Positions 35,049 through 49,522 of a stretch of DNA of 52,269 bases are shown in pieces. The notes below the pieces were generated by a model that made no database searches, was not told the origin of the DNA, and saw nothing but the letters and a program-made list of their open reading frames with translations. The first letter of the stretch is position 1; every line of letters begins with the position of its first letter. The DNA comes from Gemmatimonadales bacterium. Lineage in GTDB: Bacteria; Gemmatimonadota; Gemmatimonadetes; Gemmatimonadales; GWC2-71-9. Location: assembly GCA_035943355.1 (NCBI GenBank), contig DASZCG010000251.1, positions 1-52,269 of the forward strand, written 5' to 3'. The translations under genes were made by a program, and so were the position numbers.

Positions 35049-37431
35049 GACGAGTAAATATGACATGACCCTCCTCGGCCTGGCACTGTTCGCAGGAACG
35101 GCGTCCGCCCAAGTCACGCAGGCCCGGCTTCCCTACTTGGATCCGACCCTCCCCGTCGAGCGCCGCATCGACGACCTGCTCGGCCGGATGACGCTCGAAG
35201 AAAAGATCGGGCAGATGCTGTGTCTGTGGCAGGCGAAGCGCGCCATCACCGACTCCGCCGGCCGGTTCGATCCCTCACACCCACCGGACTGGTTTCGCAT
35301 CGGCGTGGGACGCATCGAACGACCCGGCGAGCGCCACAGCGCGAGAGCGGAAGCGGAGTACAACAACGCCATCCAGCGCTGGGTGAAGGAGCACACGCGT
35401 CTCGGTATTCCCGTGATGTTCCACGAGGAAGCCCTGCACGGGCTCGAAGGAGAGCAGGCGACCAGCTTCCCGCAGGCGATCGCATTGGCGAGCACCTGGA
35501 ACCCGGAGCTGGTAGAGCGAGTGTTCACCGCGGCCGCGGCGGAGGCGCGCGCGCGGGGCGTGCATCAGGTGCTCGCTCCCGTGGTCGACGTCGCGCGCGA
35601 TCCCCGTTGGGGACGGATCGAGGAGACCTACGGGGAGGACCCGTACCTCGCGGCCCGCATGGGTGTCGCGGCGGTGCGTGGGTTCCAGGGGGGGGGTCGC
35701 GACACGAAGATCGGACCCACGCACGTATTCGCGACCCTCAAGCATATGGCCGGGCATGGCCAACCCGAGTCGGGAACGAATGTCGGCCCGGCACCCTACG
35801 GAGAACGCACGCTGCGGGACGTGTTCCTCTACCCCTTTGAAGTCACTATTAAGGAAGGAGGGGCGCGAAGCGTGATGCCGTCCTACAACGAGGTGGACGG
35901 CATCCCATCGCACGCAAATCGGTGGCTATTGCACGACGTACTGCGCGGCGAGTGGGGGTTCGACGGCGTGATCGTGTCCGACTGGTTCGCCATCGCCCAG
36001 CTCGCCGATGTGCATCACGTCGTGGCCGATCGCGCAGAAGCGGCGCGCCGGGCACTCGCCGCCGGCGTGGATGTCGAGCTCCCCGATGTCCAGGCGTACG
36101 GCACGCTGGTCGACCAGGTGCGAGCGGGTCGCGTCGCGGAGGCCTCCATCGATAGCGTCGTGCGACGGCTGCTGCGCCCCAAGTTCGAGCTCGGCTTGTT
36201 CGAGAGCCCGTTCGTCGATCCGGACAGCGCCGACCGGATCTCGGGCGCGGAGGCGACCCGGGCTCTGGCGCTCGACGCCGCCCGCCAGGCGATCATCCTG
36301 CTCAAGAACGATCGGGGAACGCTCCCACTTTCCGCCGAGCGGTTGTCGCGCGTCGCGGTAATCGGACCGCACGCGGCCGAAACGCTGTTGGGCGAGTACT
36401 CGGGAACGCCGCGCCATGTGGTCAGTATCGTCGATGGCATCCGCGCGCGGCTGGGCAGCCGGGCGACCGTCGAGTACGCGGAAGGGACGCGCATCACCGA
36501 AGACTCCACTTTCACCCGAGACCCTCAGCCGCACCTCGGTGGGACCCGTTCCCATGAACGGGAGGGCTCCGATCGCGTCGTCGTGCCAGACACCGGGTCG
36601 AATGCGCGGCGTCGTGCCGCTGCCGTGGCGCTCGCCCGTCGCAGCGAAGTGGCGATCGTCGTTGTGGGCGACAACGAGATGACCAGTCGCGAGGCATATG
36701 CGACCAACCATCTCGGCGACCGCGCGACCCTCGGGCTTCCAGGCGACCAAGAGGAGCTGGTGCGCGCGGTACTCGCCACGGGCACGCGCACGATCCTCGT
36801 GCTCATCCATGGGCGTCCACTCTCGATCCCCAACCTCGTCGATCGCGTCCCCGCGATCCTGGATGGATGGTATCTCGGGCAGGAGACGGGCACGGCCGTC
36901 GCCGGGGCGTTGTTCGGCGACGTGAATCCCGGCGGCAAGCTACCCCTCACCGTGGCGCGTCACGTGGGGCAGCTGCCGGTGTTCTACAATGCCAAGCCCT
37001 CCGCGCGGCGGGGATACGTGTTCGACACCACGCGGCCGCTGTTTCCATTCGGGTTTGGCCTGTCGTATACGACATTCGCGTACGCGAACTTGCGCGTCGC
37101 AGCGGCTCGCATCCGTCCGAATGAGCGTACGACCGTCTCTGTGGACGTGACAAACACAGGGACCCGGGCAGGAGACGAAGTCGTGCAGCTCTACATCCGC
37201 GACGTGGTGAGCTTCGCGACGCAACCGGTCAAGCAGCTGCGCGGGTTTCGGCGCGTAACGCTGCAGCCGGGAGAGACGCGCACGATCACGTTCGATATCG
37301 GCCCGGACGAGCTCGCTTACCATGGCGCCGACATGAAGCGAGTTGTGGAGCCAGGGCAGTTCGACATCATGGTGGGCGGCAATTCCGTGGACCTTCGCAG
37401 CGTGCCTCTGGATGTCGTCGAGGCTCCTTAG
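35047..37431 (+). CDS. GH3 beta-glucosidase/beta-xylosidase (BglX-like), secreted
   Basis: Motifs MTLEEKIGQM, KHMAGHGQPESG, VIVSDWFAI (nucleophile Asp) and GGKLPLTVAR. A C-terminal FnIII-like domain follows (VSVDVTNTGTRAGDEVVQLYIRD). Alternative start at 35065. Confidence 0.9.
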   Translation: MTSKYDMTLLGLALFAGTASAQVTQARLPYLDPTLPVERRIDDLLGRMTLEEKIGQMLCLWQAKRAITDSAGRFDPSHPPDWFRIGVGRIERPGERHSARAEAEYNNAIQRWVKEHTRLGIPVMFHEEALHGLEGEQATSFPQAIALASTWNPELVERVFTAAAAEARARGVHQVLAPVVDVARDPRWGRIEETYGEDPYLAARMGVAAVRGFQGGGRDTKIGPTHVFATLKHMAGHGQPESGTNVGPAPYGERTLRDVFLYPFEVTIKEGGARSVMPSYNEVDGIPSHANRWLLHDVLRGEWGFDGVIVSDWFAIAQLADVHHVVADRAEAARRALAAGVDVELPDVQAYGTLVDQVRAGRVAEASIDSVVRRLLRPKFELGLFESPFVDPDSADRISGAEATRALALDAARQAIILLKNDRGTLPLSAERLSRVAVIGPHAAETLLGEYSGTPRHVVSIVDGIRARLGSRATVEYAEGTRITEDSTFTRDPQPHLGGTRSHEREGSDRVVVPDTGSNARRRAAAVALARRSEVAIVVVGDNEMTSREAYATNHLGDRATLGLPGDQEELVRAVLATGTRTILVLIHGRPLSIPNLVDRVPAILDGWYLGQETGTAVAGALFGDVNPGGKLPLTVARHVGQLPVFYNAKPSARRGYVFDTTRPLFPFGFGLSYTTFAYANLRVAAARIRPNERTTVSVDVTNTGTRAGDEVVQLYIRDVVSFATQPVKQLRGFRRVTLQPGETRTITFDIGPDELAYHGADMKRVVEPGQFDIMVGGNSVDLRSVPLDVVEAP

Positions 37432-39261: not shown

Positions 39262-41892
39262 TCAGCGCCTCGTCGAGACGGTGAGTGTGCGCTCGAGCCT
39301 GATGTCCGCCGAGGAGGTGCCGATCTCGACTACGACGGGACCGTTCTCCACGGTCCAGTGATGCACCTCCGGATCCCAATACCGCAGCGCTGACGCCGAC
39401 AGCGGGAAGGCGATCGTGCGCGTTTCGCCGGGACTGAGCGTCACCCGGCCGAAGCCGCGCAGGTCCCGCCGCGGTCGGGGAACGCGTGAGTCCGGATACG
39501 CCACGTACAGCTGCACGACTTCGTCGCCGCTGCGCATGCCGGTATTCGTCACGTCCACGGACACCGTCAGCGTGTCGGCGCCGCGCAGGGTATCGGAGCT
39601 GACCCGCAGACGATCGTAGCGGAACCGCGTGTAGCTCAGGCCGTACCCGAACGGATAGAGGGGTTTCCCTTCGAAGAAGCGGTACGTGCGCCCCGCCATG
39701 CCGTAGTCCTCGAACGGCGGCAGATCGGCGACGTCGCGGTAGAACGTGACCGGCAGGCGGCCGGCCGGATTGTAGTCGCCGAACAGGACATCGGCGATCG
39801 CGCTGCCGCCCGCCTGCCCCGGATACCATGCCTCGAGGATCGCAGGCACGTGCTCCTGCGCCCACGGCACCGCCAACGCGCTTCCGCTCATCAGCACCAG
39901 CACGGTGGGTTTGCCGAGGGCCGCGATGTGCTCGAGCAGGTGTTCTTGCGGAGCGGGGAGGTCGATTCGCGTGCGGTCGCCGCCCGCAAAGCCGTCGATC
40001 GCGACGCGCATTTCTTCGCCCTCGAGTCGCGCCGTGAGACCGAGGCAGAGCACGACAACATCGGCGCGCCGCGCGATCTCGACCGCCTCGGACTCGAGCG
40101 CTTCCGCTGGCGTGGCCCAGAGCAGCTGCAGCTCGGCCTCGCCATACGATTCCTCCCCGTCCACGCGCAGGTGGTAGCGCCGACCCGCCTCCAATCGCAG
40201 TGGCTCGCTCTGAGCGAAGCGCGGGTCCGGGAACTCGCCGTCATGCGTCGGATACACCGATTGCACCAGCAGGCTGTCGTCCACGTACAGCTGGAACTTG
40301 ACCGTGCCGACCAGCGCGAGCCTATACGTGCCGGTGTGTTGCGGCTGCAGGGTGGCCGTCCAGCGCACGCCGAAGTCATCCACGTTCATGTCGCCGCGCG
40401 GCGCCTTCTCGCCCCAGTTCGCGTCGAGGGTGGAATCCGTACCAGTGAACAGCGGCGCGCCCGTCATCGCGCGGCTGGAGAAATAGGCTACGTCGAGACC
40501 GCGGCCCCCCCTTCCGTGCGCGGGTGACAAGACCTGGGCGGGAACGGGCGCCAGCACCGGAAAACCGACGGCGAGATCCGAGCCGAGCGCGTAGAGCACC
40601 CGCGTGCGGGGCGAGACGGCCTCGCGGACGCCCCGGAGCGGCGTGACCGGATCGGCGGGAATCCCGTTGTAGTTGCCGAGCAGCATACGCCATTGGTCGG
40701 CGTTCGGGCCGATGAGCGCGATCGTACCGACGTCGCGCTTGAGGGGCAGCAGGTTCGCCGAGTTCTTGAGCAGCACGATCGACTCGCGTGCGACCTGGCG
40801 CGCGAGCGCGCGGTGGGCCGGCTGGTCGAGCACGCTGAAGGGGATCTGCGCCCAGCGGACTCGGTCCGGTGGATCGAACATGCCGAGCCGGAAGCGGGCG
40901 AGGAACAGCCGCGTGACGGCAGTGTCGATCGCCTGTTCGGTGATGAGTCCCTGCTTCACCGCGTCGAGCAGACTCGCGTACACCCGGCCGCACTCGAGAT
41001 CTGTTCCCGTCTTCACGGCGAGCGCTGCAGCGGCGGCGGCGGTGGGGGCGACCTTGTGGCGCTCGTAGATGTCGTTGATCGCGCCGCAGTCGGACACCAC
41101 ATAGCCCGAGAAGCCCCACTCGCCACGCAGGATGCTCGTGAGCAGGAGATCGCTGCCGCATGCGGGACTGCCGAGTACACGGTTATAGGCGCACATCAGT
41201 GAATAGGCGCCGCCCTCGCGGATCCCGGCCTCGAAGTGCGGCAGGTAGCTCTCCCGCAGATCGCGCTCGCTCACCACGGCATCGAAGGTGTGTCGAGCGG
41301 GCTCGGGTCCCGAATGCACGGCGAAATGTTTCACCGTTGCCACGGTTTTCAGGTACTTGGGATCGTCACCTTGCATGCCGCGGATGAACTGCACGGCGAG
41401 CCGCCCGGTGAGAAAGGGGTCTTCGCCGTACGTTTCCTGGCCACGACCCCAGCGCGGATCCCGGAACAGATTGATGTTGGGCGACCAGAAGGTGAGCCCT
41501 TGATAACGCTGGCGGGCGCCTTGCCGTGCGTATTCGTGATGCTTGGCGCGGGCCTCATCCGAGATGACTGACGCCATCCGGAAGATCAGAGAGTCGTCCC
41601 AGGTCGCGGCAAGGCCGATCGCCTGCGGAAAGGACGTCGCGAGCCCCGCGCGCGCAACGCCGTGCAGCGCTTCGTTCCACCAGTTGTAGGCGGGGATCCC
41701 GAGCCGGTCGATCGCCGGCGCGACGTCCTGCATCTGCGATACCTTCTCTTGGAGCGTCATGCGCGACACGAGATCGGCCGCGCGCCGCTCGAACGGCAAG
41801 TCGGTATTCTGATAATCGGGAGTCTGCGCGGCGAGCGCGGCAGCCAGCGTCGTCAAGACGACAGCGGGAACGATCCTTTCCAAACCTCCCAT
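39262..41892 (-). CDS. GH3 beta-xylosidase-like enzyme with PA14 insertion, secreted
   Basis: MTLQEKVSQM, IPAYNWWNEALHGVA (typical of the GH3 xylosidase/arabinofuranosidase clade) and YVVSDCGAI (nucleophile Asp). PA14-like block VDDFGVRWTATLQPQHTGTYRLALVGTVKFQLYVDD. FnIII-like tail. Confidence 0.85.
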   Translation of the reverse strand: MGGLERIVPAVVLTTLAAALAAQTPDYQNTDLPFERRAADLVSRMTLQEKVSQMQDVAPAIDRLGIPAYNWWNEALHGVARAGLATSFPQAIGLAATWDDSLIFRMASVISDEARAKHHEYARQGARQRYQGLTFWSPNINLFRDPRWGRGQETYGEDPFLTGRLAVQFIRGMQGDDPKYLKTVATVKHFAVHSGPEPARHTFDAVVSERDLRESYLPHFEAGIREGGAYSLMCAYNRVLGSPACGSDLLLTSILRGEWGFSGYVVSDCGAINDIYERHKVAPTAAAAAALAVKTGTDLECGRVYASLLDAVKQGLITEQAIDTAVTRLFLARFRLGMFDPPDRVRWAQIPFSVLDQPAHRALARQVARESIVLLKNSANLLPLKRDVGTIALIGPNADQWRMLLGNYNGIPADPVTPLRGVREAVSPRTRVLYALGSDLAVGFPVLAPVPAQVLSPAHGRGGRGLDVAYFSSRAMTGAPLFTGTDSTLDANWGEKAPRGDMNVDDFGVRWTATLQPQHTGTYRLALVGTVKFQLYVDDSLLVQSVYPTHDGEFPDPRFAQSEPLRLEAGRRYHLRVDGEESYGEAELQLLWATPAEALESEAVEIARRADVVVLCLGLTARLEGEEMRVAIDGFAGGDRTRIDLPAPQEHLLEHIAALGKPTVLVLMSGSALAVPWAQEHVPAILEAWYPGQAGGSAIADVLFGDYNPAGRLPVTFYRDVADLPPFEDYGMAGRTYRFFEGKPLYPFGYGLSYTRFRYDRLRVSSDTLRGADTLTVSVDVTNTGMRSGDEVVQLYVAYPDSRVPRPRRDLRGFGRVTLSPGETRTIAFPLSASALRYWDPEVHHWTVENGPVVVEIGTSSADIRLERTLTVSTRR

Positions 41893-41939
41893 CGCGCAGC
41901 GAGACTACACGTCAGCCACCCCTTGTCAAGAAAGGCCAT

Positions 41940-43709
41940 ATGATCGATCCGATCTCACGCCGTGAATGGCTGAAGGCGATGGGTGCGGTCGGAGCGGGAT
42001 CCTTGCTCCCCCCAGCTCCCGACTCCTGGCTCCCGGCTCCCGCAATTCTCCCACTCACGTCCACGAGCGAAGTCTTCATTCCGCCCCGCGGCCGGGCGTT
42101 CATGAAGTTCAGCTTCGACTTCCCAGAGCCATCGATCGAATTCGCAGGGCTGCGGTTCGGCGTTCTCGTGTTCACGCGTGAAAACACGTACGCGCTCGAT
42201 GCGAGCGCCATGACTGCCCAGGGAACCGGCGACACGCTAGCCCTCACGTCGGCACGTCTCACGTCGGCAGGTGGCCAGGTGCCCGCGGCGGGGCGTGTGG
42301 ACGCGCGGCTGCGCAAGGATGGCGATGCGGTGCTGTGCGACGTCAGCGCCGAAATGGATCAGCCGATCAAGGCGGTGACGGTCGTTGTGCGCGGCATTCC
42401 GCGCGGCAAACTCTCATCGGGTGGCGGCGAGCCGTTCGATCCGAAAGACGACGAAGTCCTCTGGGGCTATCCGTTCGGTGGTGGCGATCTGTTCGGAGAC
42501 AACACAGCATGGGGGATGGGCACGCCGCTCACCGTCGTCCAGCGGACTGAAAACGAGTTCCTCGCTCTCTCGTCACTCGATGATCGCGTGCGCACCAAGC
42601 GGTTCTACTTCCAGCCAGGCGAGCAGGGCTATCGCGTCGAGCTGGTGCACGAGGTGGAAGGCTGGATGGATCGGCGCACGGTTCAGGTGCCGACGTGGCG
42701 CATCGGCCGCGCGTCATCGCTCGACGCCGCGGTCGCCCCCCATTACGCGCACCTCGAGCGCGCGTATCACTTTCCCCGCTGGGAAACGCGCAGCGACGTA
42801 CCGGACTGGCTGCGCCGCACCGAGCTTGTCGTGACGCTGCACGGCATGCACTTCACCGGTTACATCTTCAACGACTACGCGCGGATGCTCGAGATCCTGC
42901 GCTGGATTGCGACGCAGATCCCGGCCGAGCGTGTGCTCGCATTCATCTCCGCGTGGGACGGGCGCTATTACTGGGATTACCCAACGTATCAAGCGGCGCC
43001 CCGTATGGGCGGCGAGGCCGGCTTTCAGCGTCTCGTGAAGGAAGGGCAACGGCTGGGATTCCGCATCATGCCGATGTTCGGGGCGAACGCGTCCAACCGC
43101 AAGCTCGCGAATTTCGCAACTTTCGGCGACGCCGCGACGGCGCGCATCGATGGCGACCCGTTCAGCTTGAACTGGGTGGACTGGGATAACGATCGCCATC
43201 AGGAAGGCTTCGGCGTCTACATGAACCTGGGCGTCGCATCATGGCGCCGCTGGCTCACCACTCGCATCGCCGACGTCATTGACCGCTTCGGCGTGGACGC
43301 GTATTTCCTGGACATCATCGGCGGCTGGGTCAACAACACGAAAGCCGACATGCACGAGGGCGCGCGAGGGCTCATCACGGAATTACGAACCCGCTATCCG
43401 CGCGTGCTCTGCTGCGGCGAATTTCTTTACGACGCGCTGCTCGAGTTCATTCCGCTGTATCACGCCTCGTACTCACAGTACTACGTCCCGTACGCCCGCT
43501 TCTTCTCGCATCTCTCGCATCCCGCGCCCGGGCGCGGCTCGTCGGGCGTGCATGAGTCGGGGTTCAGCCGCTGGGACGCGACGACCCTGTCGCTGACCAA
43601 ACGCGAGGGACTCATTCCAACGCTGAACATCGTTGACGACACGTTCACCAAGTACCGCGATCAAATGGCTGCGCTGATTGCGCAGGCGAAAGCGTGGGGG
43701 ACCCCATGA
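41940..43709 (+). CDS. Tat-exported protein of unknown family (beta-rich N-half plus TIM-barrel-like C-half)
   Basis: Twin-arginine signal MIDPISRREWLKAMGAVGAGSLL. Third codon positions are GC-rich throughout. The stop overlaps the GH127 ATG (ATGA at 43706..43709). I recognise no family motif. Confidence 0.7.
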   Translation: MIDPISRREWLKAMGAVGAGSLLPPAPDSWLPAPAILPLTSTSEVFIPPRGRAFMKFSFDFPEPSIEFAGLRFGVLVFTRENTYALDASAMTAQGTGDTLALTSARLTSAGGQVPAAGRVDARLRKDGDAVLCDVSAEMDQPIKAVTVVVRGIPRGKLSSGGGEPFDPKDDEVLWGYPFGGGDLFGDNTAWGMGTPLTVVQRTENEFLALSSLDDRVRTKRFYFQPGEQGYRVELVHEVEGWMDRRTVQVPTWRIGRASSLDAAVAPHYAHLERAYHFPRWETRSDVPDWLRRTELVVTLHGMHFTGYIFNDYARMLEILRWIATQIPAERVLAFISAWDGRYYWDYPTYQAAPRMGGEAGFQRLVKEGQRLGFRIMPMFGANASNRKLANFATFGDAATARIDGDPFSLNWVDWDNDRHQEGFGVYMNLGVASWRRWLTTRIADVIDRFGVDAYFLDIIGGWVNNTKADMHEGARGLITELRTRYPRVLCCGEFLYDALLEFIPLYHASYSQYYVPYARFFSHLSHPAPGRGSSGVHESGFSRWDATTLSLTKREGLIPTLNIVDDTFTKYRDQMAALIAQAKAWGTP

Positions 43710-45583
43710 AGCGCCGTGAGTTTCTCTCCTCTGTGGTGGCAGCGGCAGGGCTGGCAGGGGTGCGGGTGCCGGTCCCGGATACAACGCCGGCGGTGCTCGC
43801 CCGCCCGTTCGATCTCAATCGCGTGCGACTCCGTCCCGGACCGTTCCTCGATGCGCTCGAAGTGAATCGCCGCTTTCTCCTGGCGCAGGACGAAAACCGC
43901 CTGCTGCACATGTTCCGCCTCACGGCCGGTCTGCCGTCAACCGCCGAGCCACTCGGCGGCTGGGAGGCGCCGGTGAACGAGCTGCGCGGGCACTACCTGG
44001 GCCACTACCTCTCGGCGCTCGCCAAGATGTCGCAAAGCCTGGGCGACCCCGACCTTAAAGCACGCGGCGACAGGCTGGTCGCCGAACTGGCCACGTGCCA
44101 GCAACGGATCGGCAATGGCTACGTCAGCGCGTTTCCGGAGGAGTTCTTCGACCGGCTGCGCGACGGCAAGCCGGTGTGGGCCCCGTTTTACACGCTCCAC
44201 AAGATCATGGCCGGCCTGCTCGACATGCATACACTCACCGGCAATGCGCAGGCGCTCGATGTGCTGCAAGGCATGGCCCGCTGGACGGGACGCTGGGCGC
44301 AGCCGCTGGGCGACGAGCACATGGCGCGCGTGCTCGAGCGCGAGTACGGCGGCATGAACGAGATGCTGTACAACCTCGCGGCCGTGACCGGTCGTGACAA
44401 CTACCGCGAGCTGGCACACCGGTTTGACCATGAGCGCTTCTTCGCGCCGCTCGCGCAGGGTCGCGACGAGCTGAAAGGGCTACACGCGAATACGAACATC
44501 CCCAAAGTCGTCGGCGCCGCGCGCCGCTACGAGCTGACGGGGGACCACCGCTACCGCAGGATCGCCGAGTATTTCTGGCGCGAAGTCACGACGCAGCGCG
44601 CGTATTGCACGGGCGGCACGTCGAACGGGGAGGGCTGGGAGACCGAGCCCGGGATCCTCTCGACCGAGCTGTCAGGCTACACGCAGGAAGACTGCACCAC
44701 CTACAACATGTTGAAGCTGACCCGCCACATCTTTGGCTGGACGGCGGACCCTGCCTGCGCCGACTACTACGAGCGAGCGCTGTTCAACGGCATCCTCGGC
44801 AGCCAGCATCCGCGTGACGGCGAGAAACTGTACTACGTGAACCTCGCCGCCGGCCTGTGGAAGCTGTTCGGGACGCCGGGCCAGGATTATTGGTGCTGTA
44901 CCGGTACCATGAGCGAATCGTTCTCGCAGCTCGGCGACTCTATCTACTTCCACGACGACGCGGGGGTGTACGTGAATCTCTTCATCGCGTCAGAACTGAA
45001 CTGGAGTGAGCGCGGCATTCGCCTTGTGCAGGACACCAGGTTTCCGGAGGAAGAAGGAACCACACTCCGCATCCAGGTGGCGAAGCCGGTCCGTTGCGCA
45101 CTGCGCATCCGCGTGCCGTATTGGGCAACGGCCGGCGGCAGCGCCGCACTCAATGGCCGAACCCTGGACGGCTTCGCTGCGCCGGGCGGCTACTTCGTGC
45201 TCGATCGCACCTGGCGCAACGGCGACACGGTCGTGGTGAAGCTCCCGATGAGCCTGCACCTGCACGCGATGCCGGACGATCCGACGCTCGCGGCAGTCAT
45301 GTTTGGCCCGCTGGTGTTGGTCGGACGGTTAGGGACTGATGGACTGACGCCCGAGGTGTTGCGCGCCGAGCCGACCAAGCCGCGCACGGTGCCTGAGTAC
45401 AAACAGAAGCCGATTGCGGCACCCGAGCTGCGGACGCAGGGGTCGGAGCCCAGCGCGTGGGTCGAGCGGGTGTCGCAGCGAGCACTCGAATTTCGCACTA
45501 GGGGCCAGACGCACGACGTCACGCTCGTGCCGTTCCATACGATTTTTGATGAGCGATATGCAGTCTATTGGAAATTAGTGTGA
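43706..45583 (+). CDS. GH127 (DUF1680) beta-L-arabinofuranosidase family, Tat-exported
   Basis: The start is likely at 43706, giving MKRREFLSSVVAAAGLAG (Tat motif). Motifs GHYLGHYLSAL, YTLHKIMAGLLD, QEDCTTYNMLKL (Glu/Cys) and YWCCTGT (Cys-Cys) match the Zn/Cys-nucleophile signature of GH127. Confidence 0.85.
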   Translation: MKRREFLSSVVAAAGLAGVRVPVPDTTPAVLARPFDLNRVRLRPGPFLDALEVNRRFLLAQDENRLLHMFRLTAGLPSTAEPLGGWEAPVNELRGHYLGHYLSALAKMSQSLGDPDLKARGDRLVAELATCQQRIGNGYVSAFPEEFFDRLRDGKPVWAPFYTLHKIMAGLLDMHTLTGNAQALDVLQGMARWTGRWAQPLGDEHMARVLEREYGGMNEMLYNLAAVTGRDNYRELAHRFDHERFFAPLAQGRDELKGLHANTNIPKVVGAARRYELTGDHRYRRIAEYFWREVTTQRAYCTGGTSNGEGWETEPGILSTELSGYTQEDCTTYNMLKLTRHIFGWTADPACADYYERALFNGILGSQHPRDGEKLYYVNLAAGLWKLFGTPGQDYWCCTGTMSESFSQLGDSIYFHDDAGVYVNLFIASELNWSERGIRLVQDTRFPEEEGTTLRIQVAKPVRCALRIRVPYWATAGGSAALNGRTLDGFAAPGGYFVLDRTWRNGDTVVVKLPMSLHLHAMPDDPTLAAVMFGPLVLVGRLGTDGLTPEVLRAEPTKPRTVPEYKQKPIAAPELRTQGSEPSAWVERVSQRALEFRTRGQTHDVTLVPFHTIFDERYAVYWKLV

Positions 45584-45597
45584 GTCCAAATCCGAGA

Positions 45598-45679
45598 GTT
45601 CCCACTCTAAAGAGTGAGCCCAGTAAACCACTGCGCTTAAGCGCAGTGCCCTGATGGGCCCACTCTTCAGAGTGGGAAC
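45598..45679. repeat. 82-bp composite palindrome (REP/IS200-end-like hairpin cluster)
   Basis: GTTCCCACTCT (45598..45608) pairs perfectly with AGAGTGGGAAC (45669..45679). AGAGTGAGCCC (45611..45621) pairs 10/11 with GGGCCCACTCT (45656..45666). The centre is a perfect 20-bp palindrome, CACTGCGC-TTAA-GCGCAGTG (45629..45648). Confidence 0.9.
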
Positions 45680-45720
45680 ATCAAATACATCGCTCCACGT
45701 TGAGTTCTCGTTGATTCCCC

Positions 45721-46233
45721 GTGGCCACTATACTGTCTGTGGCCGCACATCGAATCTATTTTCACATGACGTGGTCAACGTATCGACGCATGCCGATGAT
45801 CGATCAGCTCACACGCACTTTCCTCGATGGCTTCTTCCGGCGGACCGCGATACAAGAGCGCGTGACGATAATTGCCCTGGCATTCCTTCGAACGCATGTC
45901 CATCTCCTGCTGCAATCCGGTCCCCGTATCGATGTGTCCAGGTTGGTTCAGCTGCTGAAAGGAGGAAGCAGTTACGCCGCCAGCCGTCAGCCCGATAACA
46001 AACTGGGACTCCGATGGAATAGAGAGTATTCAGTGACTAGCGTGAGCCCCAAGCTGCTGCAGGCTGCCATCGATTACATCGAGAGACAGAATAGCAGACA
46101 TCCTGGTGAGAAGATCCCCGCCGCCATCCGGAAGATCAACGAATCCAAAATTATGGCGCCCCACTCCCAACGACGTCCCGTAGCGGCGTCCGCCGTAACT
46201 CGGCGGCGAACTCCGGAACAGCCTTGGTCATGA
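45721..46233 (+). CDS. IS200/IS605-family Y1 (HUH) transposase-like protein, possibly RAYT-like
   Basis: RIYFHMTWSTYRRMPMI (N-terminal strand), LRTHVHLLL (HUH) and AIDYIERQNSRH (catalytic Tyr helix, YxxxQ). The last 83 nt overlap the 3' end of the convergent BNR gene, so the C-terminal tail is probably non-homologous read-through. Confidence 0.75.
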   Translation: MATILSVAAHRIYFHMTWSTYRRMPMIDQLTRTFLDGFFRRTAIQERVTIIALAFLRTHVHLLLQSGPRIDVSRLVQLLKGGSSYAASRQPDNKLGLRWNREYSVTSVSPKLLQAAIDYIERQNSRHPGEKIPAAIRKINESKIMAPHSQRRPVAASAVTRRRTPEQPWS

Positions 46234-49200
46234 GGTCCGCAAAGCGGGTCGTGACGTCGGCCAAGCGCTGGGTGAGCGCATCGTGCACAGCGATTTGCTG
46301 CGTGGTGGGCGCGAAGTCCGCGCCGTTCTCCGCCACGTCCGATAGCAGGGCGGCGAGGCGCCCGTAGAGCTGCATGGGGTTGCGGAATGCATCCTCGCGC
46401 GCGCCGGTCAGATTGACGTCGAACAGCGCGCCTTCGACACGCACGATGCGCCGGTCGAGCGAGTCTGCGAGACCGGCGATGCGCTTGGCTCCCGAGTCGC
46501 GCACCAGCGCGGAGTCGCGGAGTTGCGCCGCCAGATCGCGCACCTGCTTGCGCACCCATTCGAGCCGGTTGATCATGCGGGCCACGCTGTCCTGCTCCGC
46601 GCGAATCGTGCGCGCGAGCTTTCCCTGCGCCTGCACGTCGGCGTCCGTGCCCGCCGTATTGGGATCCTTGAGCACGATGACCGACTGCGTCGCCGTCACG
46701 GGAGCCGCGGTCGTGTCCTGCAAGTCCCCCACCAGCACGCGGACCGTGTAGGTCCCGGGCAAGACAAGCGGGCCGCGCAGCGAGAGGTCGAGGTCCCAGG
46801 TCACGAGCGGGCGCGTCCCATCACCGCCGGTGCGCACGAACGTCTTGCCCGGAGGCGGTGTCCGCAGCTTGGGCGTGGTCGGCGCGGAGAAGCGGAGGTC
46901 CCAGCAGACGCGGTTCAACCCCACTTTGCGCTCACCCTGCAGGACCCGCACGGTGTCGCCCTGCGCGTCGAGAATCACGAGTCGCGCCGGCTTAGGCCGG
47001 CGCGTGCTGTCGCCGGGCACGCCCAAGCCTCCGCTCGCTGGCGGGGCCGGTGTCGCCGGCGCGAAGCAGACACCCGAGGAGTTGGGTGAACCCGGGGCAC
47101 TCGACGCGACGACCGGAGCTGGCGTCGTATCCGCCAGCGCGGGGGAGATGTAATAGGTGAGCGGCACACCCGGCGCCGCGTTCTCCGCCTGGATCGCGCT
47201 GTTGGGGGCGCTCGTAACTCCCTGCTTGTCGCGCAGCCGGTAGGCAGGCGGTGGCACGAACACGTTCACCTTGCCCGACAGCGTCGCCGCGTCGAGCTGC
47301 TCGAGCGGCGATATATCATCGAGGATGTAGAAGCCGCGGCCATACGTCGCCACGACGAGATCGTGGAAATGCGGCTGCACCGTGAGCCACGCAACGGGCG
47401 CATGGGGCAGGTTGATCTGGAGCGGCAGCCAGTTGGCCCCATCGTTCAGCGTGACATAGAGGCCATTGTCCGTCCCCGCGAAGAGCAGGCCGCGCCGCAC
47501 CGGATCCTCGCGCACGACATGCACGAACGAGAGCGGCGAGCGTGGGAACGTCGCCGAGATCAGCTTCCAACTTTTCCCGTAGTCGGTGGTCTTGTAAATG
47601 TAGGGATCGAGGTCATCGAGCTCGTGGAGGTCAGCCGCGAGGTACGCGGTACCCGCGTCGAAATGCGATGGCTCGATATTCACGATCTTCGCCCAGGGAG
47701 ACAGCTTGGGGATGGAGCCGGCGACGTTCGTCCAGTGAGCGCCGCCATCGATCGACACGTGCACGAGCCCGTCGTTGGATCCCGCCCAGAGCACGCCCGC
47801 CTTTACGGGTGACTCGGCGAGCGCGAACAGCGTCGCGCCGTCGAACGTCATCAAATTATCGGTCGAAACGCCGCCCGAGCTTTGCTGGTGCGTGGTATCG
47901 TTGCGGGTGAGATCAGGGCTGATCACCTGCCAGGTGGCGCCACCGTCGTGCGACATGTGCACGACCTGACTGCCGACGTAGACCTTCGTGTGGTCGTGCG
48001 GCGAGATGGCGATGGGGAAGGTCCAATTCCAGCGGTACTTGAGATCGGCGGGCCGCCAGCCGTATGCCGCTTCTGGCCAGACGCGCACGTTGCGGGCGTG
48101 ATCGGTCCGCACGTCGTAGACCTCGAGCCCGCCGTCGTAGCATCCTGACCACACGGTCGCGTTGTCCACGGTGTCGGGGATGGCAAAGCCGCTCTCACAC
48201 CCGCCGACGTGACCCCACTGGCCCTCGCTGATCCCGCCGCCGACGCTGCGGCTCGGCATGCGGTAGGATGAGCCGTCCTGACGATTGCCGTAGAGGTTGT
48301 ACGGAACGCGCGTGTCGGTGTGGACATGGTACATCTGGGCGATCGGGAGTACGATGCGGGTCCAGCTCTTGCCGCCCGTGACGGTGAGGCTCGCACCGCC
48401 ATCGTGCGCGATCATCATCCGGTCCGGGTTCACCGGATCGATCCAGATGTCATGGTTATCGCCGCCCGCAGAGAACGGCACACGGTTGAGCGACTGACCG
48501 CCGTCACGCGACATGGTGAATCGCACCGACACGAAATAGAGCCGTTCCTCATCGTCCGGCGCGACGGCAAAGCGCACGTAGTACGGCGCGCGCTCGGCCA
48601 TGTCGTGATTGCGGGAGACGACACGCCAATTGTTACCGCGATCGTCGCTGCGATAGAGCGTCGGGTCGCGGTCTTCGATGAGCGCGTAAATGGTATTGGG
48701 GTTGGACTGAGCGACCGCCACGGCGACCTTGCCAATGACGTGCTTCGCGTCGGGGAGCCCGCGCCCCACCAGGCGCGTCCACGTGACGCCGCCGTCGTGT
48801 GAGGCCCACAGCCCGCTCCCCGGCCCACCGCTTTGCAGGTGCCAGGTCTTTACCTCGAACTGCCACATTCCGGCGAACAGGGTGTTGGGATCGCCGGGAT
48901 CGATGGCGAGATCCGAGCAGCCGGTGTTCGGGTCCACGAACAGCACGCGACTCCAGGTCTTCCCGCCGTCCGCGGTGCGGTACACCCCGCGTTGCTGTGC
49001 CGGGCCGTAGGCGCGTCCGAGCGCGCAGACGAGCACCACGTCGGGATTCGCGGGACTAATCACGATGCGGGCGATGCGTCCGGTGGAATCGAGTCCCATG
49101 TGCTGCCAGCTGCGCCCCGCGTCGGTGGAGCGGTAGACGCCGTTGCCCAGCGCCGTCATCGACCGGATGAAGAACGTCTCGCCCGTCCCTGCCCAAAGCA

Positions 49201-49522
49201 GGTTGTGCGCCGTGGGGGCGATGGCGAGCGCGCCAATCGCCTGCGCCGGCTCGCTGTCGAACACCGCGCGCCAATGCACGCCGCCATCTTCGGTTTTCCA
49301 GATCCCGCCCGACGCGGCGCCGATGTAGGCGACGAGCGGATTGCCGGGCTCGCCGACCGCGGCGATCGCGCGGTTGCCTTCGGGACCGACGAAGCGGAAG
49401 TGCAGCTTGCTCCACAGCGTCGTGTCAACCTGCTGTGCGGCCACGATCGGGGAGGTGGCCAGAAGGAGCGCGACACCGAGCTCAGACGCGCGCGGCAACC
49501 AGACGTGCTCGAAAGCGGTCAT
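46151..49522 (-). CDS. Sortilin/VPS10-like BNR (Asp-box) double beta-propeller protein with long C-terminal extension, secreted
   Basis: At least 9 Asp-box motifs: STDAGRSW, TADGGKTW, SHDGGVTW, SDDRGNNW, SRDGGQSL, AHDGGASL, SHDGGATW, SIDGGAHW, and TTDYGKSW. Signal peptide LGVALLLATSPIVAAQ. 41-nt overlap with the xylB 3' end. Confidence 0.8.
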   Translation of the reverse strand: MTAFEHVWLPRASELGVALLLATSPIVAAQQVDTTLWSKLHFRFVGPEGNRAIAAVGEPGNPLVAYIGAASGGIWKTEDGGVHWRAVFDSEPAQAIGALAIAPTAHNLLWAGTGETFFIRSMTALGNGVYRSTDAGRSWQHMGLDSTGRIARIVISPANPDVVLVCALGRAYGPAQQRGVYRTADGGKTWSRVLFVDPNTGCSDLAIDPGDPNTLFAGMWQFEVKTWHLQSGGPGSGLWASHDGGVTWTRLVGRGLPDAKHVIGKVAVAVAQSNPNTIYALIEDRDPTLYRSDDRGNNWRVVSRNHDMAERAPYYVRFAVAPDDEERLYFVSVRFTMSRDGGQSLNRVPFSAGGDNHDIWIDPVNPDRMMIAHDGGASLTVTGGKSWTRIVLPIAQMYHVHTDTRVPYNLYGNRQDGSSYRMPSRSVGGGISEGQWGHVGGCESGFAIPDTVDNATVWSGCYDGGLEVYDVRTDHARNVRVWPEAAYGWRPADLKYRWNWTFPIAISPHDHTKVYVGSQVVHMSHDGGATWQVISPDLTRNDTTHQQSSGGVSTDNLMTFDGATLFALAESPVKAGVLWAGSNDGLVHVSIDGGAHWTNVAGSIPKLSPWAKIVNIEPSHFDAGTAYLAADLHELDDLDPYIYKTTDYGKSWKLISATFPRSPLSFVHVVREDPVRRGLLFAGTDNGLYVTLNDGANWLPLQINLPHAPVAWLTVQPHFHDLVVATYGRGFYILDDISPLEQLDAATLSGKVNVFVPPPAYRLRDKQGVTSAPNSAIQAENAAPGVPLTYYISPALADTTPAPVVASSAPGSPNSSGVCFAPATPAPPASGGLGVPGDSTRRPKPARLVILDAQGDTVRVLQGERKVGLNRVCWDLRFSAPTTPKLRTPPPGKTFVRTGGDGTRPLVTWDLDLSLRGPLVLPGTYTVRVLVGDLQDTTAAPVTATQSVIVLKDPNTAGTDADVQAQGKLARTIRAEQDSVARMINRLEWVRKQVRDLAAQLRDSALVRDSGAKRIAGLADSLDRRIVRVEGALFDVNLTGAREDAFRNPMQLYGRLAALLSDVAENGADFAPTTQQIAVHDALTQRLADVTTRFADLMTKAVPEFAAELRRTPLRDVVGSGAP

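What the first reader, a model, noticed from the sequence alone, without database searches (positions are those of the whole stretch)
41940..43709. Unassigned Tat-exported two-domain protein translationally coupled to GH127: candidate new carbohydrate-active family
Seen:
- A 589-aa ORF with a textbook twin-arginine signal (SRREWLK followed by AMGAVGAGSLL) and no motif I can place in a named family.
- The first ~250 aa look beta-rich.
- The last ~330 aa alternate hydrophobic strands and helices like a (beta/alpha)8 barrel. Acidic/aromatic strand ends include WDGRYYWDYP, NWVDWDND, VDAYFLDIIGGW and CCGEFLYD.
- Its TGA (43707..43709) overlaps the ATG (43706..43708) of the Tat-exported GH127 gene.
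- The pair is divergent from a GH3 xylosidase-like gene across only 47 bp.

Inference: it is co-expressed and co-exported with a beta-L-arabinofuranosidase inside a hemicellulose locus. A beta-sandwich plus barrel layout recalls GH-D-clan or GHL-type enzymes, but that is only an impression.
Basis: partly seen in the sequence, partly recalled or inferred. Interest (0 to 1): 0.7.

Follow-up and report, generated by a model that had tools for sequence, protein, structure and literature searches.

The report
Uncharacterised Tat-exported glycosidase paired with β-L-arabinofuranosidase
This gene encodes a periplasmic two-domain enzyme from a large, unnamed family of probable sugar-cleaving enzymes that soil bacteria keep next to a β-L-arabinofuranosidase and L-arabinose catabolism genes, so it is a good candidate for a new glycoside hydrolase family acting on unusual arabinose caps of plant cell-wall glycans.

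Summary
ORF 41940..43709 (+) is a real 589-aa gene with an invariant twin-arginine signal. Its TGA overlaps the ATG of the next gene (ATGA), and it lies 47 bp from a divergent GH3.

No curated family claims it: Pfam gives only GH66 at 13.9 bits (below threshold), NCBIfam and single-sequence PDB searches give nothing, and homologues are named "hypothetical".

A 44-sequence alignment gave an AlphaFold model with pLDDT 89.8. It shows an N-terminal β-sandwich plus a (β/α)8 barrel and no C-terminal β-domain. Foldseek places it nearest the GH129-like DagB, GH36 α-galactosidases, GH129 NagBb and GH31. The family profile matches GH13 at E=1e-10, aligning D458 with the nucleophile and E494 with the acid/base. 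Distant relatives pass the Pfam DUF6259 threshold.

The neighbour is closest to BtGH146, not GH127 proper. Across 67 related genomes with enough flank, 45 place the gene beside GH146, araB, araD, an isomerase, a sugar ABC transporter or galM.

Best reading: a periplasmic retaining glycosidase of "α-D/β-L" anomeric type that releases L-arabinose, either β-L-arabinopyranosidase-like or β-L-arabinofuranosidase-like. Substrate specificity is inferred, not shown. It is a candidate new GH family of a known mechanistic kind.

The parts
41893..41939 (.). 47-bp divergent intergenic region between the GH3 gene and the target
   Evidence: ORF coordinates and sequence. No sigma-70-type promoter match was found in 41500..46300.
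41940..43709 (+). Target gene: a 589-aa two-domain protein from an uncharacterised DUF6259-related family
   Evidence: More than 1728 homologues at E<=1e-3. 644 clusters at 50% identity.
41955..41975 (+). Twin-arginine motif SRREWLK (aa 6-12) within the Tat signal peptide (aa 1 to about 30)
   Evidence: RR is invariant in 71 orthologues. pLDDT is below 50 for residues 1-30.
42045..42713 (+). N-terminal all-β sandwich domain (aa 36-258), including invariant P178 in the GYPFGGGD loop
   Evidence: DSSP on AF2 model m220ad3bba914. Foldseek alignments of about 600 columns to GH36, GH129 and GH31 include their N-domains.
42720..43706 (+). (β/α)8-barrel catalytic domain (aa 261-589), with no C-terminal β-domain
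   Evidence: GH13 profile match over β2-β5. DUF6259, GHL10 and GH66 hits in relatives.
43311..43313 (+). D458 codon, the predicted catalytic nucleophile at the end of β4 (VDAYFLD)
   Evidence: Aligns to the GH13 region II nucleophile Asp. Invariant in the 44-sequence family alignment and in 71 orthologues.
43419..43421 (+). E494 codon, the predicted general acid/base at the end of β5 (CCGEFLYD)
   Evidence: Aligns to the GH13 region III Glu. At least 90% conserved in the family and invariant in the orthogroup.
43551..43556 (+). H538-E539 in the conserved GS(S/T)GVHE loop after β7, a candidate transition-state stabiliser
   Evidence: Conserved in most family members and invariant in the orthogroup. 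The role is inferred by analogy with GH13 region IV.
43179..43193 (+). DWDND loop (D414-D418) after β3, conserved acidic and aromatic residues probably lining the -1 subsite
   Evidence: D414 is at least 90% conserved in the family. D414, W415, D416 and D418 are invariant in the orthogroup. The role is inferred.
43706..43709 (+). ATGA stop/start overlap (translational coupling)
43706..45583 (+). Tat-exported GH146-type β-L-arabinofuranosidase partner gene (Pfam GH127 catalytic and middle domains)
   Evidence: Pfam E=9.5e-116. Best PDB hit is BtGH146 5OPJ at E=2.3e-98, with the ExC and CC zinc/cysteine motifs kept.
39262..41892 (-). Divergent GH3 + PA14 + Fn3-like gene, Xyl3A-like β-xylosidase. 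It is a neighbour in this window but not a conserved partner.
   Evidence: Pfam. NCBIfam xylosidase_Xyl3A scores 954 bits, below its 1250 cut-off. It is not adjacent to the target in most related loci.

Best explanation
The gene encodes a Tat-exported, periplasmic glycoside hydrolase from an uncharacterised two-domain family. The architecture is an N-terminal β-sandwich followed by a (β/α)8 barrel, and the family is a divergent branch of Pfam DUF6259.

**Proposed mechanism (inferred).** The enzyme works as a retaining glycosidase of the α-amylase/α-galactosidase superfamily. D458 at the end of barrel strand β4 attacks the anomeric carbon. E494 at the end of β5 acts as general acid/base. H538/E539 (β7 loop), D414/D416 and R342 hold the sugar in the -1 subsite.

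**Proposed stereochemistry (inferred).** Enzymes of this fold class cleave axial 'α-D' glycosidic bonds. β-L-Arabinosides have the same absolute anomeric configuration.

**Proposed role (inferred).** The gene is translationally coupled to a GH146-type β-L-arabinofuranosidase. In other genomes it sits inside L-arabinose uptake and catabolism operons. The most likely job is therefore to release L-arabinose from unusual β-L-arabinosyl caps on plant glycan side chains (arabinogalactan-protein, arabinan, extensin-type or complex xylan side chains).

The activity could be β-L-arabinopyranosidase-like, with or without α-D-galactosidase side activity. Alternatively it could be a β-L-arabinofuranosidase with a linkage preference complementary to its GH146 partner. 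The free L-arabinose would then be imported and metabolised.

**What is shown:** the gene, the Tat motif, the fold class, the conserved acid pair and the genomic linkage. **What is inferred:** hydrolytic activity, retention of configuration, and above all the substrate.
For: **Real, conserved gene.**
- More than 1728 homologues and 644 clusters at 50% identity.
- At least 475 species-level genomes, mainly Gemmatimonadota and Acidobacteriota.

**Fold.**
- AF2 model: pLDDT 89.8, pTM 0.88, β-sandwich 36-258 plus barrel 261-587.
- Foldseek top hits: DagB GH129-like 5opq (E=1e-20, TMq 0.60); GH36 α-galactosidases (E~2e-20); NagBb GH129 (TMq 0.61); GH31 sulfoquinovosidases; GH101.

**Catalytic pair.**
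- The family profile hits GH13 neopullulanase and maltogenic amylase at E=1e-10.
- 'vDavFLD' aligns on region II 'IDGWRLD' and 'aGEgwyDa' on region III 'LGEIWHDA'.
- D458 is invariant and E494 at least 90% conserved over 21-87% identity. Both are invariant in 71 orthologues.

**Superfamily.**
- 25 of 44 members hit DUF6259 (six above the gathering score), 21 hit GHL10 and 17 hit GH66.

**Export.**
- SRR is present in 74 of 74 orthologue N-termini. The partner gene also has a Tat motif.

**Linkage.**
- ATGA overlap with the partner gene.
- A GH146-like orthologue is adjacent on the same strand in 27 of 50 loci. Five more loci carry a 35-38% identical GH127-like gene just downstream on the opposite strand (convergent).
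- 45 of 67 loci have GH146, AraB, AraD or the isomerase within 7 kb. Typical orders are 'AraB AraD Iso T GH146' and 'perm SBP ATPase T GalM'.
- AraB, AraD and GalM pass NCBIfam cut-offs.
- Independent recurrence in a ~33%-identical cytoplasmic clade: AraC-GH127-SBP-perm-perm-T. In Neobacillus cucumis: SBP-perm-perm-GH127-GH127-DUF6259-T...GH127...GH51-GH27.

**Precedents from the literature.**
- The closest fold, DagB, sits in a PUL with three GH127 genes and has the same activity as they do (PMC5698469).
- GH36 and GH27 contain β-L-arabinopyranosidases (PMC8056906 and PMC4598101, abstracts).
- AGP side chains carry Gal-α1,3-, Arap-β1,3- and Araf-β1,3- caps, and GH146 removes the last (PMC10850190).
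Against: - No enzymatic evidence exists for any member of the family.
- Structural neighbours share only 9-14% identity (TM about 0.5-0.6). Specificity therefore cannot be transferred from them.
- The GH13 match covers only β2-β5. The invariant GH13 region II Arg is Phe456 here.
- In clan GH-D the acid/base sits on β6, not β5, so the choice of E494 depends on the GH13 alignment.
- GH146/GH127 linkage is not a trait of the whole family. In 41 well-flanked metagenome loci of the P0140-like clade none had an adjacent GH127/146 gene (the single hit, L148, is a shorter locus); those loci carry CUT1 ABC transporters, LacI/GntR regulators, GH2 and SDR genes instead. DUF6259-proper members sit with sugar-acid or oxidoreductase genes.
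- Seven orthogroup loci already encode a GH27 (a possible β-L-arabinopyranosidase or α-galactosidase) next to the gene. That gene could already fill the proposed role.
- In this window the immediate setting is glucuronoarabinoxylan (GH10, GH67, GH115, CE15, GH51, GH3, XylA/B). To my knowledge β-L-arabinosyl caps are not an established feature of that polymer.
Confidence: 0.5

Rival explanations
1. It is an α-D-glycosidase acting on a D-sugar cap of hemicellulose side chains. Candidate activities are α-galactosidase, α-xylosidase or α-glucosidase. Candidate substrates are α-Gal on (Me)GlcA, Gal-α1,3-Araf of AGP, or α-Xyl on Araf of cereal xylan or on xyloglucan. In this reading the GH146 partner only works on the same polymer.
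For: - The nearest folds are GH36 α-galactosidases, GH31 and GH129.
- The family profile matches GH13 and GH66 α-glucan enzymes.
- GalM (galactose-1-epimerase subfamily) lies directly downstream in 9 loci.
- GH31 is adjacent in several loci and BNR/sortilin (GH74-like?) proteins recur.
- A 37%-identical relative sits near GalK, GalT and an epimerase.
- The window itself is a xylan locus.
Against: - The recurrent catabolic neighbours in the orthogroup are araB, araD and an isomerase, not galK/galT or additional xylose genes.
- GalM enzymes also act on L-arabinose (general knowledge).
- GH27 and GH31 genes are already present in some of these loci for the D-sugar activities.
Confidence: 0.22
2. 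It acts on hydroxyproline-rich glycoprotein (extensin) glycopeptides, for example removing the single α-D-Gal from Ser. The GH146/GH127 partner would then strip Hyp-linked β-L-arabinofuranosides.
For: - GH129 NagBb and GH101, both among the fold neighbours, cleave α-GalNAc-Ser/Thr linkages.
- GH127 HypBA1 works on extensin β-arabinooligosaccharides (PMC7263609 abstract).
- In some GH146-less loci the neighbours are peptidases: an M24 prolidase-like gene, an M1 peptidase and DUF885.
Against: - Peptidase neighbours occur in only a few loci and were not recurrent in the cluster analysis.
- The partner is closest to GH146 enzymes, which act on arabinan and AGP rather than extensin.
- The cytoplasmic relatives sit with CUT1 oligosaccharide transporters rather than peptide transporters.
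Confidence: 0.06
3. It is not a hydrolase. It could be a transglycosylase, a glycan-binding or scaffolding partner, or a chaperone-like subunit needed by the GH146 enzyme.
For: - Tight translational coupling.
- Some family members lack the Glu equivalent: P0132 has K, P0148 has S and P0161 has T at that position.
- GH13-like folds include transglycosylases (general knowledge).
Against: - D458, E494, H538 and E539 are invariant across 71 orthologues.
- Many orthologues occur without any GH146 neighbour.
- Each protein has its own Tat signal.
Confidence: 0.07

Closest known systems
DagB / ZGAL_3152, the 'GH129-like' exo-α-1,3-(3,6-anhydro)-D-galactosidase of Zobellia galactanivorans (PDB 5OPQ, 8RZK)
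   Same: - It is the best Foldseek hit (E=1.1e-20, TMq 0.60).
- It has an N-terminal distorted β-sandwich followed by a central TIM barrel, with an Asp (D486) equivalent to the NagBb nucleophile.
- It is encoded in a cluster with GH127-family genes and a GH2 acts after it (PMC5698469). The target likewise sits with a GH146/GH127-family gene, and a GH2 recurs nearby.
   Different: - Sequence identity is about 10%, and no Pfam GH129 hit was found.
- DagB has a C-terminal Ig-like domain that the target lacks.
- DagB belongs to a marine carrageenan context, whereas the target belongs to a soil plant-glycan and L-arabinose context.
- DagB is predicted to be outer-membrane anchored, whereas the target is Tat-exported.
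GH36 / GH27 α-galactosidases and β-L-arabinopyranosidases (clan GH-D), e.g. BAD_1528 (GH36) and CpArap27 (GH27)
   Same: - The β-sandwich plus barrel architecture is shared (Foldseek E~2e-20).
- They are retaining enzymes with an Asp nucleophile on β4.
- These families include enzymes that cleave β-L-Arap, the stereochemical analogue of α-D-Gal (abstracts).
- GH27 genes sit beside the target in 7 orthogroup loci and in N. cucumis.
   Different: - No Melibiase or GH36 Pfam hit was found at E<=1.
- Identity is 9-13%.
- The GH-D acid/base is an Asp on β6. Here the conserved candidate is a Glu on β5, as in GH13.
- There is no C-terminal β-domain.
GH13 α-amylase family (clan GH-H), e.g. Thermus maltogenic amylase 1SMA and neopullulanase 1J0H
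   Same: - This is the only significant sequence-level link to solved structures. The family profile scores E=1e-10 over β2-β5.
- The nucleophile Asp (region II) and acid/base Glu (region III) align.
- A possible His-acid pair lies after β7.
   Different: - The Pfam Alpha-amylase model is not matched by the target.
- The invariant region II Arg is Phe here, and the region I His is not conserved.
- Domain B and the C-terminal domain are absent.
- The genomic context has nothing to do with α-glucans.
Pfam DUF6259 (PF19773), with its neighbours GHL10 (PF02638, e.g. Cwp19), GH66 and GH114
   Same: - Distant full-length homologues of the target pass the DUF6259 gathering score (up to 52 bits).
- Those same homologues match the target-clade profile at E~1e-38 to 1e-50 over both domains.
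- NCBI names some of them 'DUF6259 domain-containing protein'.
   Different: - The target and its orthogroup give no DUF6259 hit even at E<=1.
- DUF6259 models only about 300 aa of the barrel, not the β-sandwich.
- DUF6259 has no known function, and no paper in the searchable library mentions it.

Membership tests
Pfam DUF6259 (PF19773) | Score at or above the gathering threshold (28.7 bits) against the family HMM | tested here: not met
   The target gives no hit at E<=1. Distant homologues P0208 (52.2 bits), P0265 (51), P0232 (46.4), P0264 (42.8), P0144 (32.7) and P0258 (30.3) do pass. The target is therefore a homologue by transitive search but not a member by Pfam's own rule.
GH13 / clan GH-H | Catalytic Asp nucleophile at the end of β4 (region II) and Glu acid/base at the end of β5 (region III) | tested here: met
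   The profile alignment to 1SMA and 1J0H (E=1e-10) puts D458 on the nucleophile and E494 on the acid/base. Both are conserved.
GH13 / clan GH-H | Invariant Arg two residues before the nucleophile (region II), His of regions I and IV, and a match to the Pfam Alpha-amylase model | tested here: not met
   The Arg position is F456. The region I His aligns to Ala/Ser. There is no PF00128 hit for the target, and only 1 of 44 relatives hits it, at E=0.054.
GH36 / GH27 / GH31 (clan GH-D) | Sequence match to the family HMMs (Melibiase, Glyco_hydro_36, Glyco_hydro_31) | tested here: not met
   No such hits for the target or for any of the 44 family members at E<=0.1.
GH36 / GH27 / GH31 (clan GH-D) | N-terminal β-sandwich plus (β/α)8 barrel fold | tested here: met
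   AF2 model. Foldseek probability 1.00, E=2e-20 to 1e-16, TMq 0.47-0.53. The C-terminal β-domain of these families is absent.
GH129 | Family HMM match, and the three-domain architecture with a C-terminal β-domain | tested here: not met
   No Pfam hit. The model ends after α8. Only fold similarity is seen, at TMq about 0.6.
GH66 | Pfam PF13199 gathering score of 23.7 bits | tested here: not met
   13.9 bits, E=0.021, and only 46 residues around the β4 motif.
Tat (twin-arginine) substrates | N-terminal S/T-R-R-x-F-L-K-like motif followed by a hydrophobic h-region | tested here: met
   SRREWLK followed by AMGAVGAGSLL. RR is invariant in 71 orthologues. Actual export and the cleavage site are not testable here.
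CAZy numbered GH families (dbCAN) | Match to a CAZy family HMM or to a characterised founding member | not testable with these tools
   No dbCAN/CAZy library was available. Indirect evidence: no Pfam GH family, no NCBIfam, no PDB relative, and only 'hypothetical' or 'DUF6259' names. Literature searches found no characterised member.
Glycoside hydrolase (activity) | Demonstrated hydrolysis of a glycosidic bond | not testable with these tools
   This requires enzyme assays.

The most novel reading that the evidence does not exclude
The protein founds a new CAZy glycoside hydrolase family: β-sandwich plus GH-H-like barrel, DUF6259-related, with at least 644 clusters at 50% identity. Its Gemmatimonadota/Acidobacteriota clade would be a carboxylate-based retaining β-L-arabinosidase, acting on the furanoside or the pyranoside. 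It would work in tandem with the cysteine-nucleophile GH146/GH127 enzymes. That would reveal a second, non-homologous catalytic solution for β-L-arabinoside cleavage, and a widespread soil pathway for harvesting β-L-arabinose caps from plant glycans.
Probability: 0.35. Interest if true: 0.7.

Novelty: new variant of a known kind. Interest (0 to 1): 0.55.

Why it matters
β-L-Arabinosyl caps on arabinogalactan-proteins, arabinans, extensins and RG-II block ordinary α-L-arabinofuranosidases. Only a handful of families are known to remove them: GH127, GH146, GH121, GH137 and GH142 for the furanosides, and GH27, GH36 and GH97 for the pyranosides.

This is a large family that currently has no function, no structure and no literature. 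It is repeatedly wired to GH146/GH127 genes and to the araBAD, transporter and mutarotase genes, both in abundant soil phyla (Gemmatimonadota, Acidobacteriota) and in cultured Firmicutes. That makes it a concrete, testable candidate for a missing step in plant-glycan turnover in soil.

It would also give DUF6259 a first functional anchor. The protein is small, soluble-looking and confidently modelled, and a cultured host with the same gene pairing exists (Neobacillus cucumis). The question is therefore directly testable.

Tried and rejected
**Searches that did not resolve the family**
- Single-sequence and shallow-profile searches gave nothing useful. This covers Pfam, NCBIfam, PDB phmmer and the A1 profile. 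Only the diverse A2 profile reached GH13. The A3 clade profile again found nothing in the PDB.
- The first AlphaFold run used a 15-sequence, 72-87%-identical alignment. It was poor (pLDDT 57.9) and was discarded in favour of the 44-sequence run.
- Literature searches for DUF6259, DUF5696, PF19773 and IPR046226 returned no relevant paper. A search for 'new glycoside hydrolase family' with arabinofuranosidase returned nothing matching.

**Context hypotheses tested**
- *GH127/146 linkage is universal in the family:* rejected. Among the 80 metagenome loci of the P0140-like clade, none of the 41 with at least 7 kb of sequence has an adjacent GH127/146 gene; the single hit is in a shorter locus, L148. 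DUF6259-proper loci have other contexts.
- *The pair is a xylan-specific accessory module:* weakened. The GH3 neighbour and the xylan genes are not conserved around the pair. In close relatives the upstream gene is an SSF symporter followed by GH2, and in more distant ones it is araBAD or an ABC transporter.
- *Extensin glycopeptide role:* kept only as a low-probability rival, because peptidase neighbours were sporadic.

**Technical limits**
- The promoter and terminator scan of 41500..46300 found nothing.
- I could not superpose the model on 5OPQ, 5WZN or 1SMA to check the catalytic geometry, because model coordinates are not exposed.
Full report
**1. The observation**

The ORF at 41940..43709 (+) exists and encodes 589 aa. 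It starts at an ATG preceded by AAAGG. Its codon-position GC pattern is that of a coding frame: GC3 0.79 against GC2 0.49.

- **Tat signal.** Residues 6-12 are SRREWLK, followed by the hydrophobic stretch AMGAVGAGSLL. This is a canonical twin-arginine signal.
- **Overlap.** The stop codon TGA (43707..43709) overlaps the ATG (43706..43708) of the next gene. That gene's product begins MKRREFLSSVVAAAGLAG, a second Tat signal.
- **Spacing.** The upstream GH3 gene (39262..41892, minus strand) is divergent across 47 bp.

**2. The locus**

The window is a large glucuronoarabinoxylan-type utilisation locus. Its genes, in order, are:

- GH2, CE15 glucuronoyl esterase and an SSF symporter
- GH115, a GDSL esterase and an AXE1 esterase
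- SDR, MFS and a mannonate-dehydratase-like enolase
- GH67
- a SusC-like TonB-dependent receptor and SusD
- GH51, GH3, GH10 and a GntR/FCD regulator
- GH3-PA14 (Xyl3A-like)
- the target and its partner
- a 1123-aa BNR/sortilin-repeat protein
- xylulokinase and xylose isomerase

The nearest relatives of the target are in Gemmatimonadales metagenome-assembled genomes.

**3. No curated family claims the protein**

- Pfam gives only a sub-threshold GH66 hit: 13.9 bits against a cut-off of 23.7, over 46 residues around VDAYFLD.
- NCBIfam gives nothing.
- PDB sequence searches with the protein, or with a shallow profile, give nothing.
- The protein nevertheless has more than 1728 homologues in the 90%-identity database. 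All are called 'hypothetical' and none carries a precomputed Pfam domain.
- An exhaustive HMM search finds 644 clusters at 50% identity with E<=1e-3.
- Many of those are about 540 aa and begin at residue ~56 of the target. They are cytoplasmic versions that lack the signal peptide.

**4. Fold**

A first AlphaFold run on a shallow alignment was poor (pLDDT 57.9). A 44-sequence alignment spanning 21-87% identity (A2) gave pLDDT 89.8 and pTM 0.88.

- The model has a disordered signal peptide (1-30).
- An all-β domain covers 36-258.
- An eight-stranded β/α barrel covers 261-587, ending in helix α8. There is no C-terminal β-domain.

Foldseek against the PDB returns, at probability 1.00:

| Hit | Family | E-value / TMq |
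|---|---|---|
| DagB, 3,6-anhydro-D-galactosidase (5OPQ/8RZK) | GH129-like | E=1e-20, TMq 0.60 |
| α-galactosidases | GH36 | E~2e-20 |
| NagBb, α-N-acetylgalactosaminidase | GH129 | TMq 0.61 |
| sulfoquinovosidases | GH31 | listed |
| GH101 enzymes and MYORG | GH101 and other | listed |

All are retaining enzymes for axial (α-D) glycosides, built as β-sandwich plus barrel. Sequence identities are 9-14%.

**5. Catalytic machinery**

The diverse family profile, unlike the single sequence, matches GH13 maltogenic amylase and neopullulanase at E=1e-10. More than 30 further GH13 chains score below 1e-3, and GH66, GH114 and Cwp19 (GHL10) match more weakly.

- The alignment puts the family motif vDavFLD on GH13 region II (IDGWRLD, catalytic nucleophile).
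- It puts aGEgwyDa on region III (LGEIWHDA, acid/base).
- In the target these residues are D458 (end of β4) and E494 (end of β5).
- D458 is one of only six invariant columns across the 44-sequence family alignment. E494 is at least 90% conserved.
- In 71 orthologues of 60-87% identity, the following are all invariant: R342, D414, W415, D416, D458, N465, E494, H538 and E539.
- The GS(S/T)GVHE loop after β7 may play the part of GH13 region IV. This is an inference.
- The GH13 region II arginine is Phe456 here, and the Pfam Alpha-amylase model is not matched. The protein works like a GH-H enzyme but is not a GH13 member.

**6. Relation to DUF6259**

Scanning the 44 members against Pfam gives DUF6259 in 25, GHL10 in 21 and GH66 in 17. 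Six distant members exceed the DUF6259 gathering score. Those same proteins match the target-clade profile over both domains at E~1e-38 to 1e-50.

The target clade is thus a divergent, Pfam-invisible branch of the DUF6259 superfamily. DUF6259 itself has no known function, and no paper in the searchable library mentions it. In cultured organisms (Paenibacillus piri, Neobacillus cucumis, Aquibacillus albus, Aggregatilinea lenta) homologues are named 'hypothetical' or 'DUF6259 domain-containing'. Some are mis-named as GHL10 or GH114.

**7. The partner gene**

The downstream gene matches the Pfam GH127 catalytic and middle domains. Its closest characterised relative is BtGH146 (5OPJ, E=2.3e-98), followed by the β1,3-specific GH146 enzyme Bll3HypBA1 (8K7X/Y, E~1e-59). 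GH127 HypBA1 scores only ~1e-12. The identity of 5OPJ as BtGH146 was confirmed in PMC10728902.

The ExC and CC motifs of the zinc/cysteine-nucleophile site are retained in the alignment. It is therefore a GH146-type β-L-arabinofuranosidase. Characterised GH146 enzymes remove β-L-Araf caps from arabinan and arabinogalactan-proteins (PMC10850190).

**8. Conserved genomic linkage**

A scan of species-representative genomes found at least 475 genomes with a relative. The best 80 loci were fetched; they are 59-87% identical, mostly Gemmatimonadota with some Acidobacteriota.

*GH146 adjacency*
- A GH146-like orthologue is immediately adjacent on the same strand in 27 of 50 loci that have at least 2.2 kb on both sides. 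It is downstream in 23 (gaps of 0-271 bp) and upstream in 4.
- Five more loci have a 35-38%-identical GH127-like gene just downstream on the opposite strand (convergent).

*Other recurrent neighbours*
- Neighbouring ORFs were clustered and annotated.
- Ribulokinase AraB scores 637 bits against a cut-off of 428.
- L-ribulose-5-phosphate 4-epimerase AraD scores 292 against 257.
- Also recurrent are a fucose/arabinose-isomerase-like protein and a CUT2 monosaccharide ABC transporter (binding protein, permease, double ATPase).
- Galactose-1-epimerase GalM scores 340 against 240, and GH27 is present in 7 loci.

*Typical gene orders*
- 'AraB AraD Iso T GH146'
- 'GH146 AraD T'
- 'AraD AraB< Iso< perm SBP ATPase T GalM GH27<'

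*Summary*
- Of 67 loci with at least 5 kb of flank, 45 have GH146, AraB, AraD or the isomerase within 7 kb.
- In the closest relatives the upstream gene is an SSF symporter followed by GH2, not the GH3 of this window.
- The T-GH146 pair has therefore been kept through rearrangements while the xylan genes have not.

**9. Recurrence in a distant clade, and its limits**

- A cytoplasmic homologue about 33% identical (P0140) lies in AraC - GH127 - SBP - permease - permease - T.
- In Neobacillus cucumis the arrangement is SBP - perm - perm - GH127 - GH127 - DUF6259 - T ... GH127 ... GH51 - GH27.
- This is not general. Among 80 metagenome loci of that clade, none of the 41 with at least 7 kb of sequence had an adjacent GH127/146 gene; the single hit was in a shorter locus, L148. 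The usual neighbours are CUT1 oligosaccharide transporters, LacI/GntR regulators, GH2 and SDRs.
- Other relatives sit with GH43 and an ADP-ribosylglycohydrolase-CBM6/35 protein.
- Others sit with GH63-like genes plus GalK/GalT, with GH3 plus ROK, or with sugar-acid and oxidoreductase genes.

The superfamily is consistently carbohydrate-related but has diversified. The L-arabinose signal belongs to the target's orthogroup and to one Firmicute branch.

**10. Mechanistic reading**

*Shown:*
- a real, widely conserved gene
- an invariant Tat motif
- a β-sandwich plus barrel fold of the α-retaining glycosidase class
- a conserved Asp/Glu pair in GH13-equivalent positions
- translational coupling and conserved synteny with a GH146 gene and with L-arabinose uptake and catabolism genes

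*Inferred:*
- It is a retaining glycosidase, with D458 as nucleophile and E494 as acid/base, acting in the periplasm.
- Enzymes of this fold class cleave α-D-configured bonds, and β-L-arabinosides share that absolute anomeric configuration. GH27 and GH36 contain genuine β-L-arabinopyranosidases.
- Arabinogalactan-protein side chains carry Gal-α1,3-, Arap-β1,3- and Araf-β1,3- caps on the same α-L-Araf residue. GH146 removes the last of these.
- The closest structural relative, DagB, shares both its gene cluster and its activity with GH127 enzymes.

The best-supported hypothesis is therefore a β-L-arabinosidase, acting on the pyranoside or the furanoside and possibly with α-galactosidase activity. 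It would complement the GH146 partner, and the released L-arabinose would feed the adjacent transporters, mutarotase and AraA/B/D pathway.

My confidence in each level of the claim is:

| Claim | Confidence |
|---|---|
| It is a glycoside hydrolase | ~0.85 |
| It has an L-arabinose-related role | ~0.55-0.6 |
| Any single substrate is correct | ≤0.3 |

**11. Rivals**

- **An α-D-glycosidase (Gal, Xyl or Glc) acting on hemicellulose caps.** This is supported by the fold neighbours, GalM, and the GH31 and BNR neighbours. It is weakened by the araBAD context.
- **A Ser-α-Gal hydrolase for extensin glycopeptides.** Peptidase neighbours exist but are sporadic.
- **A non-hydrolytic role.** This is disfavoured by the invariant catalytic residues and by frequent occurrence without GH146.

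**12. Novelty**

I found no characterised member, no structure and no literature. Without dbCAN I cannot exclude a very recent CAZy family, so the claim is 'candidate new GH family within a known fold and mechanism class'. That makes it a new variant of a known kind.

It is a solid, testable lead rather than a surprise in kind, and I score interest at 0.55.

Noticed in passing
The Pfam PF07944 model covers both families, so Pfam-based 'GH127' labels in soil metagenomes may often be GH146.
   Followed up: yes
window 46151..49522 (-); also L003, L009, L052, L056, L059: A 1123-aa BNR/Asp-box and sortilin-Vps10 repeat protein lies convergent with the pair and recurs near the target in several genomes. 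Its only NCBIfam signal is a weak 'F510_1955 family glycosylhydrolase' hit (122 bits against a cut-off of 175). It could be a GH74-like or otherwise novel propeller glycosidase.
   Followed up: partly
L032:8486-9991 and 8 other loci (isomerase next to araB/araD): The L-arabinose clusters of these Gemmatimonadota use a 502-aa protein that matches only Fucose_iso_C. Its other hit is a weak sulfoquinovose isomerase match (111 bits against 700). It is not canonical AraA, so it is probably a non-canonical L-arabinose isomerase.
   Followed up: partly
L086:12091-13791, L087, L090:8454-11042: Large ADP-ribosylglycohydrolase-fold (PF03747) proteins sit next to distant family members in two unrelated contexts. 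One is fused to CBM6 and CBM35. The CBM fusion suggests a glycan-directed, possibly glycosidase, role for this fold.
   Followed up: no
L081:8308-15731: Two tandem DUF6259 genes are followed by two tandem DUF3604 genes, an SDR, an SGL-type lactonase-like gene and DUF6786. This is a compact cluster of unknown-function genes with a sugar-acid flavour.
   Followed up: no
L074:11794-14652 and L074:7877-9964; L059:7942-9960: In some Acidobacteriota-like loci the target is flanked by DUF885 and DUF5695 proteins and a GH31. In L080 and L051 it is flanked by M24 prolidase-like and M1 peptidase genes. These contexts are sporadic and unexplained.
   Followed up: partly
window 14348..15844 (-): The CE15 glucuronoyl esterase carries a C-terminal FIMAH domain (weak hit, E=1.3e-4, 22.9 bits against a 24.8 cut-off). 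This is an unusual appendage for a CE15.
   Followed up: no
window 45584..46150: There is a 567-bp gap between the convergent GH146 and BNR genes. It holds only a 114-aa ORF (45654..45998) with no Pfam hit and no terminator-like hairpin in the scan.
   Followed up: no
window 33006..33123 and 37343..37431: The mechanically called starts of the GH51 and GH10 ORFs overlap the ends of the SusD and GH3 genes by about 90-120 bp. The true starts are probably further downstream.
   Followed up: no
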